Origin: Minisyncoccota bacterium
GTDB lineage: Bacteria; Patescibacteriota; Minisyncoccia; Phycocordibacterales; Zambryskibacteraceae
Assembly (NCBI GenBank): GCA_036517475.1
Contig: DATDVZ010000010.1
Coordinates: forward strand, 15,338 to 79,337
DNA: 64,000 nt
Reading direction: 5' to 3'
The position numbers were made by a program, and so were the translations under genes. The stretch's first letter is position 1; every line of letters starts with the position of its first letter. A model generated the notes under the pieces. That model searched no databases, was not told where the DNA came from, and saw nothing but the letters and a program-made list of their open reading frames with translations. This document shows positions 3,660 through 56,974 of the stretch, piece after piece.

Positions 3660-4616
3660 ATGAATGATATAGACAAGTTAAAAAGAGACTTTCTTGAATA
3701 TCTGGAGATTGAAAGAGGTTCGGCCTTAAAAACTATTGAGAACTATGACTTATACCTAAGCCGCTTCTTGGATTTTGCCCAGGTAAAAAAACCAAATGAT
3801 ATTACAGAAAATAGCGTCAGACAATTCCGTCTTTCACTTAATAAGCAGCTTGTTGGTAATGGTCAGACTCTTTCCAAAAAAACTCAAAATTACTACATGA
3901 TTGCTTTGAGAATGTTTCTCAAATACCTTGCTAAAAGAAATATCAAAGCCATGCCGGCAGACCAGATTGAACTTGCAAAAGTTAAGGAACATTCTTTAAA
4001 TTTAATAACCCCCAAAGAGCTTGAACGACTTCTTGATGCTTCAAAAGGTAATGATTTGAAGAGTCTGCGCGATAAGGCAATACTTGAACTCCTTTTTTCT
4101 ACAGGTATGAGGGTCTCCGAACTTTGCTCCCTGCCGCGCGATATATCCACATCATCAGAAGAGCTCTCCATCCGAGGCAAGGGCGGTAAGATCAGAGTAG
4201 TCTTTATTTCAGAGAGTGCGCGTGAAGCGCTAAAAAAATATCTCAACGCCCGCAAGGATATGGAAGAAGGGCTTTTTATACGTTTAGGCAATCTTTCAGG
4301 TAAAAATAAGAATCCACCAGAGCAAAAAAAAGGAAAGGAGAAAAAAAAGAAATATCTCGGCAAAGATTACGGCAACCTAGACCGACGATCCGTTGAAAGT
4401 ATTGTAAAACACTATGCAATAAAAGCTGGCATTTCAAAAAAAGTTACTCCGCATGTCATAAGACACTGCTTCGCCACTGATCTTCTGCAAAATGGAGCGG
4501 ACTTGCGTTCAGTGCAGATGCTTTTGGGACACGCTAATATTGGCACTACTCAAATTTATACTCATATTACCGACAAGCACTTGAGAGAGGTTCATAAAAA
4601 ATATCACTCAAAATAA
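3660..4616 (+). CDS. tyrosine site-specific recombinase, XerC/XerD-like
   Basis: 318 aa; N-terminal SAM-like domain, catalytic HVIRHCFATDLL...LLGHANIGTTQIYTH. Carries a Lys-rich about 30-aa insertion (GKNKNPPEQKKGKEKKKKYLGKDYGN). Confidence 0.8.
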   Translation: MNDIDKLKRDFLEYLEIERGSALKTIENYDLYLSRFLDFAQVKKPNDITENSVRQFRLSLNKQLVGNGQTLSKKTQNYYMIALRMFLKYLAKRNIKAMPADQIELAKVKEHSLNLITPKELERLLDASKGNDLKSLRDKAILELLFSTGMRVSELCSLPRDISTSSEELSIRGKGGKIRVVFISESAREALKKYLNARKDMEEGLFIRLGNLSGKNKNPPEQKKGKEKKKKYLGKDYGNLDRRSVESIVKHYAIKAGISKKVTPHVIRHCFATDLLQNGADLRSVQMLLGHANIGTTQIYTHITDKHLREVHKKYHSK

Positions 4617-4628
4617 ATTTCGCAGTGC

Positions 4629-4657
4629 TTGACAAGTAATTCATAATTTGCTATAAT
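4629..4657 (+). promoter_or_regulatory. sigma70-like promoter (TTGACA-17-TATAAT)
   Basis: ttgaca at 4629-4634, tataat at 4652-4657. Confidence 0.5.
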
Positions 4658-4683
4658 CTAAATAACCCTAACAAAAGGAGTTC

Positions 4684-4833
4684 ATGCATATCAACCGCCG
4701 GAAACTCCGTCAGGAACTCGGGAGTCGCGTCGGTCGTCGACGAGGCACCAAAAGTGGGCCGATGGGCGTCCGAGTTCCTCGCCCTCGCATCCGCCTCGCC
4801 GAGAAAATCGAGCGGATGAAGGTCAAGAGCTGA
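4684..4833 (+). other. GC-rich islet: 49-aa Arg-rich small ORF (MHINRRKLRQELGSRVGRRRGTKSGPMGVRVPRPRIRLAEKIERMKVKS), or alternatively a structured ncRNA
   Basis: Strong SD aaaaggag 3 nt before ATG. About 60% GC in a roughly 35% GC genome. Long internal inverted repeat aggaactcgg...ccgagttcct. Followed by an intrinsic terminator. Confidence 0.3.
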
Positions 4834-4844
4834 TAGTACTGCAC

Positions 4845-4880
4845 GAAAACCGCACAAGGTTTCGTGCGGTTTTGTTTACT
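4845..4880 (+). terminator. rho-independent terminator (aaaaccgcac-loop-gtgcggtttt + T-rich)
   Basis: 10-bp stem, T-run follows. Confidence 0.7.
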
Positions 4881-4883
4881 AGA

Positions 4884-4911
4884 AGCTGAAAGCTAAAAGC
4901 TGTAAGCTAGA
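4884..4911 (+). repeat. four tandem heptamers AGCTNNN (agctgaa agctaaa agctgta agctaga) directly 5' of the xth ATG
   Basis: exact 7-nt phasing of the AGCT core. Confidence 0.6.
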
Positions 4912-4914
4912 GTC

Positions 4915-5682
4915 ATGCGTATTATTTCGTGGAATGTAAATGGATTGCGCGCCTTACACAGAAAAGGTAAGTGGAATGAGATTCTTGATCTTGATCCTGA
5001 TATTCTCTGCCTTCAGGAAATCAAAGCAGAAGTAAAAGATCTTCCAGCAGAAGTACAGAGTCCGCTCAATTTTTATTCATATTTTGACTCTCCAAAAGAA
5101 AAAAAGGGTTACAGCGGAGTTGCCATGTACTCCAAAGTCAAAACAGAGGGTGTTAGTTATGACTTCCACGGCGATAAAGAGGGGCGTCTCATTGAAGCTC
5201 ATTTCAAGGATTTTATTCTTTTTAATGTTTATTTTCCCAACGGAGGGGGTGGCCCGGAAAGACTTAAATACAAATTAGAGTTTTACGAAAAGTTTTTGAA
5301 ATTTATTGAAAAGCACAGAAATCCGCCAACTGGCGGAAAGCCGATAATTTTCTGCGGAGATATAAATACTGCTCACAAGGAAATTGATCTAGCTAGACCA
5401 AAAGAGAATGAAACTAGGACAGGTTTTTTACCGGAGGAAAGAGTATGGATAGATAAAGTAGTAAAAAAAGGTTATGTAGACATTTTCCGTCATCTTAATC
5501 CAGATAGATCGGGTGCATACACTTACTGGGATATGAAAACATTTGCACGCGACAGAAATGTCGGCTGGAGGATAGATTATTTTTTTATTTCGCCAGAATT
5601 GCTCTCAAAAGTTAAAAAGGTTGAAATTTTAGATGATATTTTTGGTTCCGATCACTGTCCTATCAGTTTGGAATTAAATTAA
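4915..5682 (+). CDS. xth: exodeoxyribonuclease III (AP endonuclease)
   Basis: 255 aa; MRIISWNVNGLRA...LCLQE...SDHCP motifs. Confidence 0.9.
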   Translation: MRIISWNVNGLRALHRKGKWNEILDLDPDILCLQEIKAEVKDLPAEVQSPLNFYSYFDSPKEKKGYSGVAMYSKVKTEGVSYDFHGDKEGRLIEAHFKDFILFNVYFPNGGGGPERLKYKLEFYEKFLKFIEKHRNPPTGGKPIIFCGDINTAHKEIDLARPKENETRTGFLPEERVWIDKVVKKGYVDIFRHLNPDRSGAYTYWDMKTFARDRNVGWRIDYFFISPELLSKVKKVEILDDIFGSDHCPISLELN

Positions 5683-6175: not shown

Positions 6176-6203
6176 TTGACATAAATAATTTTGCGAGTAT
6201 AAT
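6176..6203 (+). promoter_or_regulatory. sigma70-like promoter for nusA (TTGACA-16-TATAAT)
   Basis: ttgaca 6176-6181, tataat 6198-6203. Confidence 0.5.
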
Positions 6204-6216
6204 GGGTCATTATTAT

Positions 6217-6247
6217 TAATGGTTCGCCCGAAAGGGCGAACCATTAG
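6217..6247 (+). promoter_or_regulatory. perfect 13-bp stem hairpin in the nusA 5' leader (taatggttcgccc gaaa gggcgaaccatta)
   Basis: seen directly, lies between the predicted TSS and the nusA ATG. Confidence 0.5.
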
Positions 6248-13805: not shown

Positions 13806-13879
13806 TGGTGCGGCCAGCGAGAATCGAACTCGCGTCCCGTCCTTGGCAAGGACGTATTCTGCCACTAAACCATGGCCGC
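13806..13879 (-). tRNA. tRNA-Gly (GCC), CCA encoded
   Basis: GCGGCCA acceptor, anticodon stem CGTCC/GGACG, loop TTGCCAA, T-arm GCGAG-TTCGATT-CTCGC. Confidence 0.8.
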
Positions 13880-13926
13880 ATAAAAAAGAATTTTAAAATC
13901 CTATCAAATTAATAGAAATCAAACAA

Positions 13927-14466
13927 TTATTTGGCACCTAAGAAATTTATTATCTTTAATGCACATTTTTGTGGAGATAGGTGCGTATTGTTAATAATAA
14001 TTGGCGGATAAGATTTTAATCCTTGAAAAATTTTCGCTTTCAATTTTTCTTTAAACTTTTTGATTGTATTAGTTTTTGTTTTTTCTTTTCTTGAAGGCAT
14101 TAGAATTCTATTTTTATGCTCCTGCCAATCACACTCTATCCTGAAGAAAAAAATTTCGGCGTTCATTTTTTTTGCTAATTGTACAGATTTTTTCGCAATC
14201 TGCGTTGTTGGATGAAGTCTTATACTCAAAGTACAAATAATACCCCCTACTCCTGACTTAAGAAGCATTTTGAGTATTGCTAGATGCATTTTTCCATTTA
14301 GTAGGTGTGCATTTGGGGTTCCTTGGGGTATGAAATGACAGATCTCTCTGTAAGTAAGATGGTTATCCAACAATGCATATCCAGTCAACTTGCTGATAGC
14401 AAGACCGATCGTAGTTTTACCCACTCCAGGCAAACCAATCAAATAAATTACTCTTTTTCTTCTCAT
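13927..14466 (-). CDS. P-loop NMP/shikimate-kinase-like protein
   Basis: Walker A LIGLPGVGKTTIGLAISKLTGYALLDNHL (shikimate/gluconate kinase-like N-term). ATG at 14466. Confidence 0.5.
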   Translation of the reverse strand: MRRKRVIYLIGLPGVGKTTIGLAISKLTGYALLDNHLTYREICHFIPQGTPNAHLLNGKMHLAILKMLLKSGVGGIICTLSIRLHPTTQIAKKSVQLAKKMNAEIFFFRIECDWQEHKNRILMPSRKEKTKTNTIKKFKEKLKAKIFQGLKSYPPIIINNTHLSPQKCALKIINFLGAK

Positions 14467-14543
14467 TTTATTGCTTAATGCCAATATTTACTCAGGCAAT
14501 CCCAACCAAAGGATAATCAATTATATTTTAACCCTAATTATAT

Positions 14544-14614
14544 TCGGGCTGCCGGGAATTGAACCCGGGCCTTACCCACCCCATGGGCAAATACTACCGT
14601 TATACTACAGCCCG
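14544..14614 (-). tRNA. tRNA-Pro (GGG), no encoded CCA
   Basis: C1:G70 first pair, discriminator A, loop ATGGGGT, T-arm CCGGG-TTCAATT-CCCGG. Confidence 0.75.
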
Positions 14615-14617
14615 TTA

Positions 14618-15130
14618 TTATTCAAAAAAACCCTTCTCTTTGTACTCCTTTACCAATGCATCCGCAGTTTCTTTTTCAAGGTCTATGGGAATCTGGCTTG
14701 CCCACTCTTCAGCCTCTTCCAATTTATCATTTATCAAAAGATATAGAAGTTTTGTGATGGTATTTGGGTGATTCTCAGACTGGTACTCGAGTGCTTTTGC
14801 AGCATGAAACTGTGCTTTTTCTTTATCTTTATATCTCCATGTCGCACAGCTAATTGCATGATGATGCCAAAACCAGAGAATTTCTTGCCAATATTCTTTT
14901 TCTTCTTCCGTAAGAGTTGCTGAATCAACAGCTTCTAAAATTTCTTTTACTTTATTTACTACTAGATTAGGATTGTTATAATCCCAGGAACCATCCTTCA
15001 TGAGTTTCTGATCTTCTTCGCTGTATCTATGCGACAACCCAAGAGGTGTTTTTGCCGCCAGCAGAACATAAGCTGCCCTTAGTGGGCTTCTCTCTATTTC
15101 AAATACTTCATTACCGGTGGAACCTTCCAT
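14618..15130 (-). CDS. hypothetical protein (170 aa) wedged between two tRNA-Pro genes
   Basis: ATG 2 nt after the tRNA-Pro(UGG) 3' end; stop 3 nt before the tRNA-Pro(GGG) 5' end. Confidence 0.4.
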   Translation of the reverse strand: MEGSTGNEVFEIERSPLRAAYVLLAAKTPLGLSHRYSEEDQKLMKDGSWDYNNPNLVVNKVKEILEAVDSATLTEEEKEYWQEILWFWHHHAISCATWRYKDKEKAQFHAAKALEYQSENHPNTITKLLYLLINDKLEEAEEWASQIPIDLEKETADALVKEYKEKGFFE

Positions 15131-15132
15131 TG

Positions 15133-15203
15133 TCGGGGCGCCGAGAATCGAACTCGGCCCTCATGCTCCCAAAGCATGCATACTACCGATATACTACGCC
15201 CCG
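15133..15203 (-). tRNA. tRNA-Pro (UGG), no encoded CCA
   Basis: C1:G pair, anticodon stem CATGC/GCATG, loop TTTGGGA, T-arm CCGAG-TTCGATT-CTCGG. Confidence 0.8.
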
Positions 15204-15252
15204 AATTTCGGATTAATTTACACTGGTCGGCACCTCACTGGTATTCATTCGT

Positions 15253-15323
15253 TCGGGGTGCCGGGAATTGAACCCGATTCTCACGAACCCGAATCGTGTA
15301 TACTACCGGTGTACTACACCCCG
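15253..15323 (-). tRNA. tRNA-Pro (CGG), no encoded CCA
   Basis: C1:G pair, anticodon stem CACGA/TCGTG, loop TTCGGGT. Confidence 0.75.
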
Positions 15324-15370
15324 AAAATAACTTTCAAATCCTATCATAGAGACAGAAGAGCAGCGAATTT

Positions 15371-15754
15371 TTACAAAACAATATTTTCCATGTACTTCAC
15401 CTTAACTTTTTTATTCCCCTCATCAATCACCACTACCGCTACATCAAATTGCCAGTCAACCTCTAAATCTTTTTCAAGTAAATAAGTCTGAATTGTTCTT
15501 GATAACCTTTTCATTTTCCAGGGGTGAATGTTATCCTCCGGATTCCAAGAATCTAATGTTTCACGTGAAAACTCAGAAAAACTGACTGTTTTTACCTCAA
15601 CAAAATGAATTTTCCCGTCAATTTCTGCAATTATGTCAATTTCGCCCCATTTTCTTAGATAATTTCTTTCAATAATATTAGATTTTCTACTCTCAAGAAA
15701 TTTACAGGTAATTTCCTCACCAATATCACCAAATCTTCTTCTCTCGCTTTTCAT
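15371..15754 (-). CDS. YraN-family (UPF0102) endonuclease
   Basis: 127 aa; GDIGEEITCKFLESRKSNIIERNY...GEIDIIAEIDGKIHFVEVKT. Confidence 0.7.
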   Translation of the reverse strand: MKSERRRFGDIGEEITCKFLESRKSNIIERNYLRKWGEIDIIAEIDGKIHFVEVKTVSFSEFSRETLDSWNPEDNIHPWKMKRLSRTIQTYLLEKDLEVDWQFDVAVVVIDEGNKKVKVKYMENIVL

Positions 15755-15970
15755 AATTTAATTGATTTCACGTGAAACTAAAATATTAGTTACTAAGTAA
15801 CTTATTCAAAAATGTTACTTAGAAACACAATTAACTGATCTGTAATTAAATTCCTAATTAAAGGACGTCCTTTATACACATATCCACAGTTTTATCCCCA
15901 ATTCTTTGTCCTTTATATTTTAAATACAACCATACATATTTAAAGAATTGGGATTAAAATAAAGGACATT

Positions 15971-16041
15971 TGCGGGATGGGAGAATCGAACTCCCGACCA
16001 CAGTTTGGAAAACTGTTGTTTTGCCACTAAACTAATCCCGC
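15971..16041 (-). tRNA. tRNA-Gly (UCC), no encoded CCA
   Basis: GCGGGAT acceptor, anticodon stem ACAGT/ACTGT, loop TTTCCAA. Confidence 0.8.
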
Positions 16042-16043
16042 AT

Positions 16044-16115
16044 CGCACCCGTCAGGAATCGAACCCGAAATACGAAGTCCGAAGCTTCGCGTGATATCCG
16101 TTTCACTACGGGTGC
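16044..16115 (-). tRNA. tRNA-Arg (UCG), no encoded CCA
   Basis: GCACCCG acceptor, anticodon stem CGAAG/CTTCG, loop CTTCGGA. 2 nt from tRNA-Gly. Confidence 0.8.
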
Positions 16116-16157
16116 ACAGCTATATCATAACTTCAATTCTCCTAAATTTAAGGCTTA

Positions 16158-54872: not shown

Positions 54873-55202
54873 TTATATCAGACCGCTTTTGCTAAGAAGA
54901 CTCTCTATATCATCATACAAATCTTCTTTAGATATATTACCCAACCTGGATTTAAAATAAAATGCTAACAAAAAACCATCGGTGATTTTTTTCAGAAAAC
55001 TTTTTATCTGCCCGTAACCCCTTCTTCTGAGACGGTTGCGGTCAGCTGCATTCTTTGCAACTTTTTTTGAAACAATAAAAGTAACTTTTGAATTTCCACT
55101 GGCGCGAGACACTTTCAATGACAAAAAATTCCCGCTGAAAGTTTTTCCACGTGACAAAAGATCGAAATCACTTCTCTTTATCCTTCTGTTCTTTGGAAGC
55201 AT
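54873..55202 (-). CDS. rnpA: ribonuclease P protein component
   Basis: 109 aa; Arg/Lys-rich, RNR-like motif. Confidence 0.85.
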   Translation of the reverse strand: MLPKNRRIKRSDFDLLSRGKTFSGNFLSLKVSRASGNSKVTFIVSKKVAKNAADRNRLRRRGYGQIKSFLKKITDGFLLAFYFKSRLGNISKEDLYDDIESLLSKSGLI

Positions 55203-55251
55203 AAATAAACCATTTGTATTTAAATGTATTTAAAAGTTTTAAATCTGGAAA

Positions 55252-55386
55252 TTAAACAGAAATTAACTTTCTGCCTTTTTGCCTTCGTCTCTTTAGTGTT
55301 CGTCGTCCGCCTGAGGATTTTTTTCTTTTAATAAACCCGTGAGCTCGGCTTCTTTTTCTTTTTTTTGGTTGATATGTACGAGACAT
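55252..55386 (-). CDS. rpmH: 50S ribosomal protein L34 (44 aa; not in the ORF track)
   Basis: [44 protein letters not shown]; classic rpmH-rnpA-yidC order. Confidence 0.85.
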
Positions 55387-55388
55387 AG

Positions 55389-55433
55389 AACTAACATAAT
55401 AACAAACAACTTATAACTTACAACTAGTAACTG
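55389..55433 (-). repeat. heptamer array 5' of rpmH on the minus strand (cagttac tagttgt aagttat aagttgt ttgttat tatgtta gttct-ATG)
   Basis: AGTT/TGTT core at 7-nt spacing. Confidence 0.5.
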
Positions 55434-55624
55434 AATTTCTTAAAAAAGTTTGCTTATTTGCCTAAATTTTTATTGATAAAAATTCAAACAGGTCAAGTTA
55501 TGATGTCCACTTTTTTTCCACTGTTTATCAACATAAAACATGCTTTTTTTCAAGTTTTTTAATATTTGGAGAAGTATATACTACGGGTACTATAACCCTG
55601 TTAATTTCATTCTTTTACTAAAAC

Positions 55625-56974
55625 ATGCCAGATCACAAAGAACTATGGAACTCCGTCCTGGTAGAAATGGAATTAAGTGTTTCCAAACCCAACTTTAACA
55701 CCTGGTTTAAAGACACCAATATCGTCCGACATGACGATAACACGGTTTATCTGGCTGTTCCTAACGCTTTTGTGAAAGAGTGGCTCCATAATAAATACCA
55801 CAACACAATATTGCGCCATATCCGTTCCATTGTGCCCTCCGTCCATTCAGTGGAATACATTATTACAAGGGAAGATGGTAAAAAAACCGAAACAAGGAGG
55901 GAAGAGATGTTGATTGCGCCCGTCCAAGAACTTCCTCTAAGCGATTATTACATCAACAAGGAGGATAATCTGAACCCCAGATACACATTTGAAAGTTTTA
56001 TAGTGGGTCCGTTCAATGAATTGGCACACGCTGCTTCCCAAGCTGTAATAAAAAAGCCGGGATTAACATATAACCCTCTTTTCATTTACGGAAATACGGG
56101 TCATGGCAAAACTCACCTCATACAGGCAGTTGGAAACCATATTAAAAACTTGTATAAGGATAAAAAAGTGATCTATGTTACCTCCGAAAAATTCGCTTCT
56201 GATGTGATAGGTGGAATTCAGAGCGGAAAAATTGCCCAAATCAAAGAAAAGTACAGAAAATATGATGTTTTAATCATGGATGACATCCAGTTTCTCTCCA
56301 GAACGGAAAAGACTCAGGAGGAGCTATTTCACCTCTTCAATACTCTTTTTGACAACAACAAACAAATTGTATTTTCTTCTGACAAACACCCCAATCTCAT
56401 ACCGGGAATAGAGGACCGCCTTAAAGGTAGATTTTCTGCAGGAATGACTGTAGATATTCCCGCCCCAGATCAGGATTCGCGAGCGGCAATAATAAAAGCC
56501 AAAACAACACAGAATAATTTCTCGCTTTCACAGGAAGTAATTGATTTTCTTGCTTTAAGTATTATTGGAAATATACGTGATCTGGAGGGGGTAATTAATC
56601 TCATAATCTGCCAGTCCCAACTTAAAGGTAGGGAACTCAGCCTCAATGAGGTCAAAAACACCATAAAGGCAAGCGCCAAACCAAAGAAGTCAGTGTCCAT
56701 TAAGGAGGTTGTTAAAATGGTCGCAGATTACTATAGAATCGAGGAAAACAACATTTACGAAAAAACCAGAAGAAAGGAAATAATAAAACCAAGACAAGTT
56801 GCTATGTATATATTAAGGGAGGATTTTAATATTTCTTACCCATCGATTGGACAGAAGTTGGGTGGTAGGGATCATACAACCGTAATTCACTCTTGTGAAA
56901 AAATCAAATCAGAAGTAAAAGATGATCAGATGCTGGCTCAAGAGATTGCACAACTACGTTCAATGATTGTTTAA
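55625..56974 (+). CDS. dnaA: chromosomal replication initiator DnaA
   Basis: 449 aa; AAA+ (GNTGHGKTHL), C-terminal DNA-binding domain. Confidence 0.95.
   Translation: MPDHKELWNSVLVEMELSVSKPNFNTWFKDTNIVRHDDNTVYLAVPNAFVKEWLHNKYHNTILRHIRSIVPSVHSVEYIITREDGKKTETRREEMLIAPVQELPLSDYYINKEDNLNPRYTFESFIVGPFNELAHAASQAVIKKPGLTYNPLFIYGNTGHGKTHLIQAVGNHIKNLYKDKKVIYVTSEKFASDVIGGIQSGKIAQIKEKYRKYDVLIMDDIQFLSRTEKTQEELFHLFNTLFDNNKQIVFSSDKHPNLIPGIEDRLKGRFSAGMTVDIPAPDQDSRAAIIKAKTTQNNFSLSQEVIDFLALSIIGNIRDLEGVINLIICQSQLKGRELSLNEVKNTIKASAKPKKSVSIKEVVKMVADYYRIEENNIYEKTRRKEIIKPRQVAMYILREDFNISYPSIGQKLGGRDHTTVIHSCEKIKSEVKDDQMLAQEIAQLRSMIV

What the first reader, a model, noticed from the sequence alone, without database searches (positions are those of the whole stretch)
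4629..4880. GC-rich (about 60% GC) 190-bp islet with own promoter, SD and terminator: Arg-rich 49-aa protein or structured RNA
The islet sits between the xer recombinase and xth in a roughly 35% GC genome. It has a TTGACA-17-TATAAT promoter, then aaaaggag and an ATG opening a 49-codon ORF (MHINRRKLRQELGSRVGRRRGTKSGPMGVRVPRPRIRLAEKIERMKVKS, rich in CGN/GGN codons). It ends at a strong intrinsic terminator. The segment also contains a long imperfect inverted repeat (aggaactcgg...ccgagttcct), compatible with an extended RNA hairpin. It does not match any ribosomal small protein I recognise; L34 is elsewhere, at 55252-55386. The composition jump suggests horizontal acquisition or an RNA whose structure constrains GC.
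Basis: seen in the sequence. Interest (0 to 1): 0.6.

Follow-up and report, generated by a model that had tools for sequence, protein, structure and literature searches.

The report
Foreign small basic-protein gene cassette
The GC-rich islet is a real, horizontally acquired gene for a 49-residue, very basic protein with its own promoter and terminator, from a tiny unnamed protein family; it is not a structured RNA, and it is only mildly unusual.

Summary
The islet has a perfect TTGACA-17-TATAAT promoter with an upstream TG. It also has an AAGGAG box, a 49-codon ORF (4684-4833), a 10-bp-stem terminator, and the highest GC peak in the 64-kb window.

The RNA reading fails:
- No Rfam match, even at E<=10.
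- The coding part folds no better than shuffles.
- The hairpin is not kept in homologues.

The protein reading is supported. Three homologues exist among about 15 billion proteins (48, 69 and 80 aa), sharing M-x-[IV]-NRRK[LI]R-xx-LG[ST]R-xx-RR-x-[GS]TK. Synonymous sites between members are saturated (pS 0.67-0.93) while pN is 0.25-0.39. Gaps are multiples of three. All four have a Shine-Dalgarno box before the same start.

Codon usage is foreign: GC3 is 0.67 against 0.33 for the host, and all 12 Arg codons are CGN. The host's own Arg-rich rpmH is 37% GC.

In related Patescibacteria, xer and xth are adjacent, usually 1-126 nt apart. So the cassette is a lineage-specific insertion in a slot that holds unrelated cargo in other genomes.

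Function is unknown. I infer a nucleic-acid-binding peptide from a mobile element. No Pfam, PHROGs, NCBIfam, PADLOC, PDB or fold match was found. Modest interest.

The parts
4629..4657 (+). sigma-70-type promoter: TTGACA, 17-nt spacer, TATAAT, with TG before the -10. The inferred transcription start is near 4664-4666.
   Evidence: 12/12 match, TG present; only 2 such sites in 64 kb on both strands, against 0.04 expected. The start site is inferred from the usual 6-8 nt distance and was not measured.
4675..4681 (+). Shine-Dalgarno-like box AAAGGAG, 2-3 nt before the ATG. This spacing is short.
   Evidence: All three homologues also carry a purine-rich GGAG/GAGG box before the aligned start. Host genes rarely have one (3 of 35 long ORFs).
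4684..4833 (+). Coding sequence for a 49-aa protein, MHINRRKLRQELGSRVGRRRGTKSGPMGVRVPRPRIRLAEKIERMKVKS. It has 12 Arg, 5 Lys, pI about 12, and three predicted helices.
   Evidence: homologues P0003, P0004, P0005. (codon-position skew, pS saturated, pN 0.25-0.39). (gaps of 6 and 12 nt in a DNA-only alignment). (AlphaFold2 model, pLDDT 76). (GC3 0.67, all Arg codons CGN).
4712..4779 (+). Inverted repeat (10 perfect base pairs, extended imperfectly) inside the coding sequence. It is not conserved and is probably incidental to the GC-rich, Arg/Gly codon content.
   Evidence: pair I3; fold; pairs not kept in homologues; z = -0.97 for the ORF alone; 11/500 shuffles reach 10 bp.
4846..4880 (+). Intrinsic terminator: AAAACCGCAC, 8-nt loop, GTGCGGTTTT, then GTTT.
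   Evidence: pair I2, 10/10 complementary; the hairpin forms in the minimum-energy fold. It is not listed by the simple scanner.

Best explanation
The islet is a self-contained, horizontally acquired small-protein gene.

A consensus sigma-70 promoter (4629-4657) should drive a transcript of about 215 nt. That transcript has a leader of about 20 nt with an AAGGAG box, a 49-codon ORF (4684-4833) and an intrinsic terminator (4846-4880).

The product is a very basic peptide (12 Arg, 5 Lys, pI about 12) with three predicted helices. It belongs to a very rare, unnamed family of which I found four members. The shared N-terminal core is M-x-[IV]-N-R-R-K-[LI]-R-x-x-L-G-[ST]-R-x-x-R-R-x-[GS]-T-K, followed by P-R-x-R-L-A-E in three of the four members. 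The other three members sit inside runs of tightly packed small ORFs with overlapping stops and starts, on contigs of about 1 kb. That layout is typical of phage or other mobile-element operons.

In this Patescibacteria chromosome the gene has been dropped between xer and xth. That junction is usually 1-126 nt long in relatives and holds unrelated cargo in others.

Shown: the gene signals, the family, selection on the protein, the foreign codon usage and the insertion.

Inferred: the gene is expressed, it came from a mobile element, and the protein acts by binding nucleic acid (RNA or DNA) through its Arg-rich amphipathic helices. This would resemble Arg-rich-motif peptides and small basic phage or ribosomal proteins.
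For: 1. Gene signals. The promoter is 12/12 with TG and such sites are very rare by chance. The terminator is and the ORF.

2. Family.
- A phmmer search of 1.84 billion representatives gave P0003 at E = 2.2e-4, with 61% identity over residues 1-46.
- A profile of two sequences found P0004 (E = 1.6e-16) and P0005 (E = 9.9e-7) in 5.8 billion clusters.
- A profile of four found no more.
- tblastn of each homologue against the window hits only 4684-4830, at E = 1e-9 to 3e-11.

3. Coding signature.
- Between the window and L083, differences by codon position are 15, 11 and 34 of 45 codons. Among unchanged residues, 22 codons differ and only 5 are identical, including CTC to TTG/TTA and CGC to AGA.
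- pS is 0.67-0.93 (saturated) and pN is 0.25-0.39.
- MAFFT on DNA alone places gaps of 6 and 12 nt.
- All four ORFs start at the same aligned codon, behind a GGAG-type box.

4. Foreign origin.
- GC3 is 0.67 against a host value of 0.33 (binomial p about 1e-6).
- None of the 12 Arg codons is AGR, against 61% AGR in the host.
- Synonymous-usage log-odds is -0.31, against a host mean of 0.10 (sd 0.035).
- The host's own Arg-rich rpmH is 37% GC.

5. Insertion.
- xer lies directly upstream of xth in 58 of 80 related loci.
- The spacer is 1-126 nt in 34 of them and never holds this sequence.
- Longer spacers hold unrelated genes: a ParE toxin, a methyltransferase, VanY and small membrane proteins.

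6. Structure. AlphaFold2 gives helices at 5-11, 15-23 and 34-48, with mean pLDDT 76.
Against: - The family has only four members, and the first link (E = 2.2e-4) is between Arg-rich sequences. Because homologues were found by protein similarity, the excess of synonymous differences is partly expected by construction. The independent supports are the shared start codon, the Shine-Dalgarno boxes, the in-frame gaps and the later profile E-values.
- The GGAG box is only 2-3 nt from the ATG, which is short for efficient initiation. The host seems to use Shine-Dalgarno boxes rarely, so translation in this host is not assured. The host 16S 3' end is not in the window.
- There are no expression data.
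- I found no larger contig for the homologues, so 'mobile element or phage' rests on gene packing alone.
- Nucleic-acid binding is inferred from composition only. No fold or family match supports it.
Confidence: 0.8

Rival explanations
1. The islet is a structured non-coding RNA gene (an sRNA, or a divergent 6S or SRP-like RNA). On this reading the GC content is imposed by its helices and the ORF is incidental.
For: - A strong promoter plus terminator and a GC-rich body in an AT-rich genome is the usual look of a stable RNA.
- The whole 217-nt unit folds better than shuffles (z = -3.48).
- The 10-bp perfect inverted repeat is reached in only 11/500 shuffles.
Against: - No Rfam family matches at gathering score or at E<=10.
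- Without the terminator, the ORF part folds at z = -0.97. The three homologues fold at 0.10, 1.11 and -0.76.
- The opposite strand folds equally well (z = -3.22).
- On the four-sequence alignment, 60% of cells pair overall. I calculate that without the window itself (100% by construction) about 45% pair, close to the slid controls at 33-39%.
- Sequence conservation follows the reading frame: third-position changes dominate and gaps are in frame.
Confidence: 0.05
2. The islet is a cis-regulatory leader (riboswitch or attenuator) of xth. Transcription would start at 4629-4657 and either stop at the 4846-4880 terminator or read through into xth.
For: - The order is promoter, structured leader, terminator and then a gene 35 nt downstream on the same strand.
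- An alternative pairing of 4693-4705 with 4859-4871 could compete with the terminator stem (pair I1).
Against: - xth in relatives has no leader. A -10 box sits 6-9 nt before its ATG in L003, L004, L012, L026, L047 and L068.
- The window keeps the same geometry (TAAGCT, 6 nt, ATG at 4915).
- No relative has this element upstream of xth.
- No Rfam riboswitch matches.
- The same sequence occurs in unrelated gene contexts as an ORF.
Confidence: 0.03
3. The islet is an inert relic: a recently inserted fragment of foreign DNA whose ORF is intact but not usefully expressed in this host. The promoter and terminator would be host intergenic signals (for example the xer terminator) that happen to flank it.
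For: - Codon usage has not adapted to the host.
- The Shine-Dalgarno spacing is short and the host mostly lacks such boxes.
- Only this one genome carries it.
- Terminator hairpins occur in the xer-xth spacer of some relatives (L068 and L072), so the terminator could predate the insertion.
Against: - The ORF is full length relative to the 48-aa homologue P0005 and keeps all 16 family-invariant residues.
- A 12/12 promoter with TG at the right distance is very unlikely by chance (0.04 expected per window).
Confidence: 0.1
4. The islet is an assembly chimera or contamination.
For: The GC jump is abrupt, and no close relative carries the islet.
Against: - Identical sequence across both junctions is present in a JGI assembly (22,959-bp contig) and a Logan assembly of SRR2090153.
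- The flanks continue the conserved xer-xth synteny.
- The AT-rich promoter and terminator fit the ORF exactly.
Confidence: 0.02

Closest known systems
Phage 'morons' (independent promoter-ORF-terminator units inserted between genes, described for lambdoid phages by Hendrix and colleagues; cited from my own knowledge)
   Same: It has its own promoter, a single small ORF, its own terminator and a base composition unlike its surroundings. It is inserted between two genes that are adjacent in relatives.
   Different: It sits between chromosomal housekeeping genes (xer, xth) of a Patescibacteria genome, not inside a recognisable prophage. No phage gene is seen nearby.
Arg-rich-motif RNA-binding peptides (for example the N-terminus of lambda N; my own knowledge) and small basic DNA-packaging proteins such as phiX174 J
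   Same: Short, helical, very Arg-rich and carried by mobile or phage-like gene sets. This is a plausible way for a 49-aa protein of pI 12 to act.
   Different: There is no detectable sequence or profile similarity in PHROGs, Pfam or PDB. No boxB-like or nut-like target was identified. The comparison is an analogy only.
Ribosomal protein bL34 (rpmH)
   Same: Similar size and a similar Arg/Lys-rich composition, with a loosely similar G-x-R...TK-x-G stretch by eye.
   Different: Pfam gives no match at E<=1. The genuine rpmH is at 55252-55386 on the minus strand, with host codon usage (37% GC). ORF49 is absent from relatives.
Mitochondrial ribosomal protein mS22 (PDB 7pnt chain R)
   Same: It is the only PDB sequence hit of the family profile: E = 0.0098, 19 bits, over a basic N-terminal stretch.
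   Different: The score is marginal, the region is low-complexity and basic, and the target is a 359-aa protein. I treat the hit as compositional.

Membership tests
Any Rfam RNA family (SRP, 6S, tmRNA, RNase P, riboswitches, sRNAs) | Covariance-model score at or above the family gathering score | tested here: not met
   only six tRNAs elsewhere in the window; at E<=10 there are only five chance-level matches to eukaryotic snoRNA and miRNA families, at 14-16 bits.
Structured RNA (generic) | Folds more stably than shuffles, and the pairs are kept by compensatory changes in homologues | tested here: not met
   ORF-only z-scores are -0.97, 0.10, 1.11 and -0.76. I calculate about 45% pairing in the homologues, against 33-39% in slid controls.
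Protein-coding gene under purifying selection | Homologous ORFs share a start, gaps are in frame, third-position changes dominate, and pN is below pS | tested here: met
   pN/pS is 0.32-0.55 with pS saturated. Gaps are 6 and 12 nt. A Shine-Dalgarno box and an ATG or GTG are aligned in all four.
Ribosomal protein bL34 (Pfam Ribosomal_L34) | Match to the Pfam model, and presence as a single conserved gene next to rnpA | tested here: not met
   no Pfam match at E<=1; the real rpmH-rnpA pair lies at 54873-55386 on the minus strand.
Phage moron | Own promoter and own terminator flanking one ORF | tested here: met
Phage moron | Composition unlike the neighbours, and absence from the same junction in relatives | tested here: met
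Phage moron | Located inside a prophage or phage genome | tested here: not met
   the flanks are rpsO, xer, xth, exbD and nusA. PHROGs gives no hit. Viral contig scans found nothing.
Known phage protein families (PHROGs) or defence proteins (PADLOC) | Profile match | tested here: not met
   nothing below E = 0.19.
Arg-rich-motif antiterminator (lambda N-like) | Binding to a boxB-type RNA hairpin and NusA-dependent antitermination | not testable with these tools
   There is only a compositional resemblance. No sequence similarity was detected.

The most novel reading that the evidence does not exclude
The four sequences define a new family of small Arg-rich nucleic-acid-binding proteins carried by mobile elements or phages of Patescibacteria and their neighbours. 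In this genome one copy has been domesticated under a consensus promoter as a highly expressed accessory protein. It could be a nucleoid-, ribosome- or RNA-associated factor, or an anti-defence or antitermination peptide. It would be translated through a Shine-Dalgarno box in a host that otherwise looks largely leaderless.
Probability: 0.15. Interest if true: 0.5.

Novelty: new member of a known kind. Interest (0 to 1): 0.25.

Why it matters
A GC-rich islet with a promoter and terminator in an AT-rich candidate-phyla-radiation genome looks like a stable RNA, but here it is a foreign small-protein gene.

It adds one unannotated family of very small basic proteins: four members among about 15 billion predicted proteins. 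It also shows that the xer-xth junction is a variable cargo slot in Paceibacteria-type genomes.

This is useful for annotating small proteins and for reading recent gene flow into reduced genomes. It does not open a major question unless the peptide turns out to have a defined nucleic-acid target.

Tried and rejected
- Rfam at gathering score and at E<=10 gave nothing.
- blastn and nhmmer of the islet against 80 related xth loci (+-10 kb) hit only the two contigs that duplicate the window.
- blastn against phage and plasmid collections gave only chance hits of 30-40 nt.
- Pfam, PHROGs, NCBIfam, PADLOC, a PDB sequence search, and Foldseek against PDB and BFVD gave no credible hit for the family.
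- I tried to find larger contigs carrying the family or its neighbours. I used family profile scans of viral and metagenome contigs, the 96/98-aa neighbour in viral, metagenome, phage and plasmid collections, and other neighbours in viral contigs. All were negative, so the element that carries the homologues stays unidentified.
- I considered a target-site duplication: TCATGCATAT at 4682 against TCATGCGTAT at 4913. I rejected it. By my estimate about two such 9-of-10 matches are expected by chance in 400 bp, and the first copy is part of the conserved M-H-I-N start of the family.
- I considered a dif-like Xer site in 4637-4665. I rejected it by eye because the arms are not palindromic and the region is simply the promoter.
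- A literature search for the motif NRRKLR returned no paper.

Full report
**What is in the sequence**

Between the stop codon of a tyrosine recombinase gene (xer, 3660-4616) and the start of an exonuclease III gene (xth, 4915-5682) lie 298 nt (Pfam assignments). This spacer contains:
- TTGACA, a 17-nt spacer and TATAAT, with TG before the -10 (4629-4657; 12/12).
- AAAGGAG at 4675-4681.
- An ATG at 4684 opening a 49-codon ORF that ends at 4833.
- A hairpin, AAAACCGCAC-8 nt-GTGCGGTTTT followed by GTTT (4846-4880).

A 12/12 promoter match occurs only twice in the 64 kb on both strands, against 0.04 expected from shuffles. The other precedes nusA.

GC reaches 66.7% in a 120-nt window. This is the highest value in a window that averages 38.3%. 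Every other peak I checked lies in a tRNA or inside a long ORF. The high-GC stretch coincides with the ORF (61% GC).

The same sequence with both junctions is found in two assemblies.

**Is it an RNA?**

- Rfam gives nothing for this region at gathering scores or at E<=10.
- The whole unit folds better than shuffles (z = -3.48), but so does its reverse complement (z = -3.22).
- The signal comes from the terminator. The ORF alone gives z = -0.97.
- A perfect 10-bp inverted repeat is reached in 11 of 500 shuffles of the ORF.
- When the window's minimum-energy structure is laid on an alignment with the three homologues, 60% of cells pair. That figure includes the window itself at 100%. I calculate about 45% for the other three, against 33-39% for slid controls.
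- The homologous stretches fold at z = 0.10, 1.11 and -0.76.

Nothing supports a conserved RNA structure.

**Is it a protein?**

A word-indexed search of 5.8 billion protein clusters found only the ORF itself.

An exhaustive phmmer search of 1.84 billion representatives found P0003 (69 aa) at E = 2.2e-4, with 61% identity over residues 1-46. It also returned a repetitive 959-aa protein, which I discount as unrelated.

A profile of the two sequences then found P0004 (80 aa, E = 1.6e-16) and P0005 (48 aa, E = 9.9e-7). A profile of four found no more. Each is a singleton cluster without a name.

The four share M-x-[IV]-NRRK[LI]R-xx-LG[ST]R-xx-RR-x-[GS]TK. Three of them also share P-R-x-R-L-A-E.

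At the DNA level:
- Window against L083 differs at 15, 11 and 34 of 45 first, second and third codon positions. Among conserved residues, 22 codons differ and only 5 are identical.
- pS is 0.67-0.93, which is saturated. pN is 0.25-0.39.
- A MAFFT alignment of the DNA alone places gaps of 6 and 12 nt.
- All four ORFs begin at the same aligned ATG or GTG, behind a GGAG-type box.

Because the homologues were found by protein similarity, the synonymous excess is partly built in. The shared start, the ribosome-binding boxes, the in-frame gaps and the profile E-values are independent of that. I conclude that 4684-4833 is a protein-coding gene.

**Where did it come from?**

The organism is a Patescibacteria (Paceibacteria-type) bacterium. 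The best xth relatives are 67% identical or less and are all such genomes.

In 58 of 80 related loci, xer lies directly upstream of xth. In 34 of those the spacer is 1-126 nt, and in 24 it is 160-1427 nt. None contains the islet.

The longer spacers hold unrelated genes on either strand: a ParE toxin with a partner ORF, a methyltransferase, a VanY peptidase, small LiaF-like membrane proteins and unnamed ORFs. The junction is therefore a variable slot, and the islet is a lineage-specific insertion into it.

The codon usage is foreign to the host:
- GC3 is 0.67 against 0.33 (p about 1e-6).
- All 12 Arg codons are CGN, while the host uses AGA or AGG for 61% of Arg.
- The synonymous-usage score is far outside the host range.
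- The host's own Arg-rich rpmH is 37% GC, so Arg content alone does not explain the GC jump.

The three homologues lie on contigs of about 1 kb (43-58% GC). There they sit inside runs of small ORFs whose stops and starts overlap. This layout is typical of phage or other mobile-element operons. None of their genes matches Pfam or PHROGs convincingly, and I could not find longer contigs.

**How it probably works**

Shown: a complete transcription and translation unit, selection on the protein, and recent foreign origin.

Inferred: the consensus promoter makes it strongly transcribed. The peptide has 12 Arg, 5 Lys and pI about 12, with three predicted helices at 5-11, 15-23 and 34-48 (pLDDT 76). 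It probably binds RNA or DNA through its Arg-rich amphipathic helices, as Arg-rich-motif peptides and small basic phage or ribosomal proteins do. No fold or family match supports a more specific function.

One caution applies. The GGAG box is only 2-3 nt from the ATG. Only 3 of 35 long host ORFs have such a box, and many look leaderless. Translation efficiency in this host is therefore uncertain.

**Rivals**

| Reading | Confidence | Main reason |
|---|---|---|
| Structured RNA | 0.05 | Disfavoured by the tests above |
| xth leader or attenuator | 0.03 | xth keeps its own -10 box 6 nt before the ATG, as in relatives; the element occurs elsewhere as an ORF in other contexts |
| Inert relic | 0.1 | Cannot be excluded without expression data; the intact family-invariant residues and the perfect promoter argue against it |
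| Assembly chimera | 0.02 | Two assemblies agree |

**Verdict**

This is an ordinary kind of thing: a horizontally acquired, moron-like small gene. The instance is slightly unusual because it is a very rare, unannotated small basic-protein family in a reduced Patescibacteria genome, placed in a recurrent cargo slot. Interest is 0.25. Novelty: new member of a known kind.

Noticed in passing
window 4617-4914; loci L003-L082 upstream of the xth match: The xer-xth junction is conserved in 58 of 80 related Patescibacteria loci, but its length varies from 1 to 1427 nt. The 24 long spacers carry unrelated cargo: a ParE toxin pair in L026, a methyltransferase in L069, VanY in L047, small LiaF-like membrane proteins in L036 and L072, and unnamed 94-122-aa minus-strand ORFs in L006, L007, L021, L027 and L031. 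It looks like a recurrent insertion slot next to a recombinase gene.
   Followed up: partly
window, upstream of long ORFs (e.g. 3660, 16195, 34076, 49808, 50593; minus strand 23300, 61473): Only 3 of 35 long ORFs have a GGAG/GAGG/AGGA box within 25 nt upstream. By eye, at least 10 have a TAnnnT -10 box ending 6-8 nt before the ATG, so they look like leaderless mRNAs. The xth genes of relatives show the same geometry.
   Followed up: partly
window 4879-4909: A tandem 7-nt repeat (consensus CTAAAAG, 4.4 copies; also reads as 14 nt x 2.2) sits directly before the xth start. It overlaps the presumed xth -10 box (TAAGCT).
   Followed up: no
window 6176-6203: The only other perfect TTGACA-16-TATAAT in the window lies 15 nt upstream of the nusA start at 6219. 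This shows that the host does use consensus sigma-70 promoters.
   Followed up: no
window 13806-16116, minus strand: A cluster of six tRNA genes (Gly-GCC, Pro-GGG, Pro-UGG, Pro-CGG, Gly-UCC, Arg-UCG) is interleaved with ORFs of 120-185 aa. All three Pro isoacceptors lie within 800 nt.
   Followed up: no
window 54873-56974: rpmH (55252-55386) is on the minus strand, not the plus strand. It is followed by an rnpA-like ORF (54873-55202, minus) and faces a 449-aa dnaA-like ORF (55625-56974, plus; identified by eye). The window probably spans the replication origin region.
   Followed up: partly
L083 293-487 and 712-1002; L084 408-704: Two neighbours of the family's homologues stand out. One is a 64-aa CxxC...CxxH protein with a weak Endonuclease VII / treble-clef hit (E = 0.007). 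The other is a 96/98-aa protein conserved between L083 and L084 (65% identity), with no match in Pfam, PHROGs, phage, plasmid, viral or metagenome collections.
   Followed up: partly
L083 1-154: An ORF running in from the contig start, in another frame, overlaps the first 68 nt of the P0003 gene. It is unclear whether this is a real overlapping gene or an open frame arising by chance.
   Followed up: no
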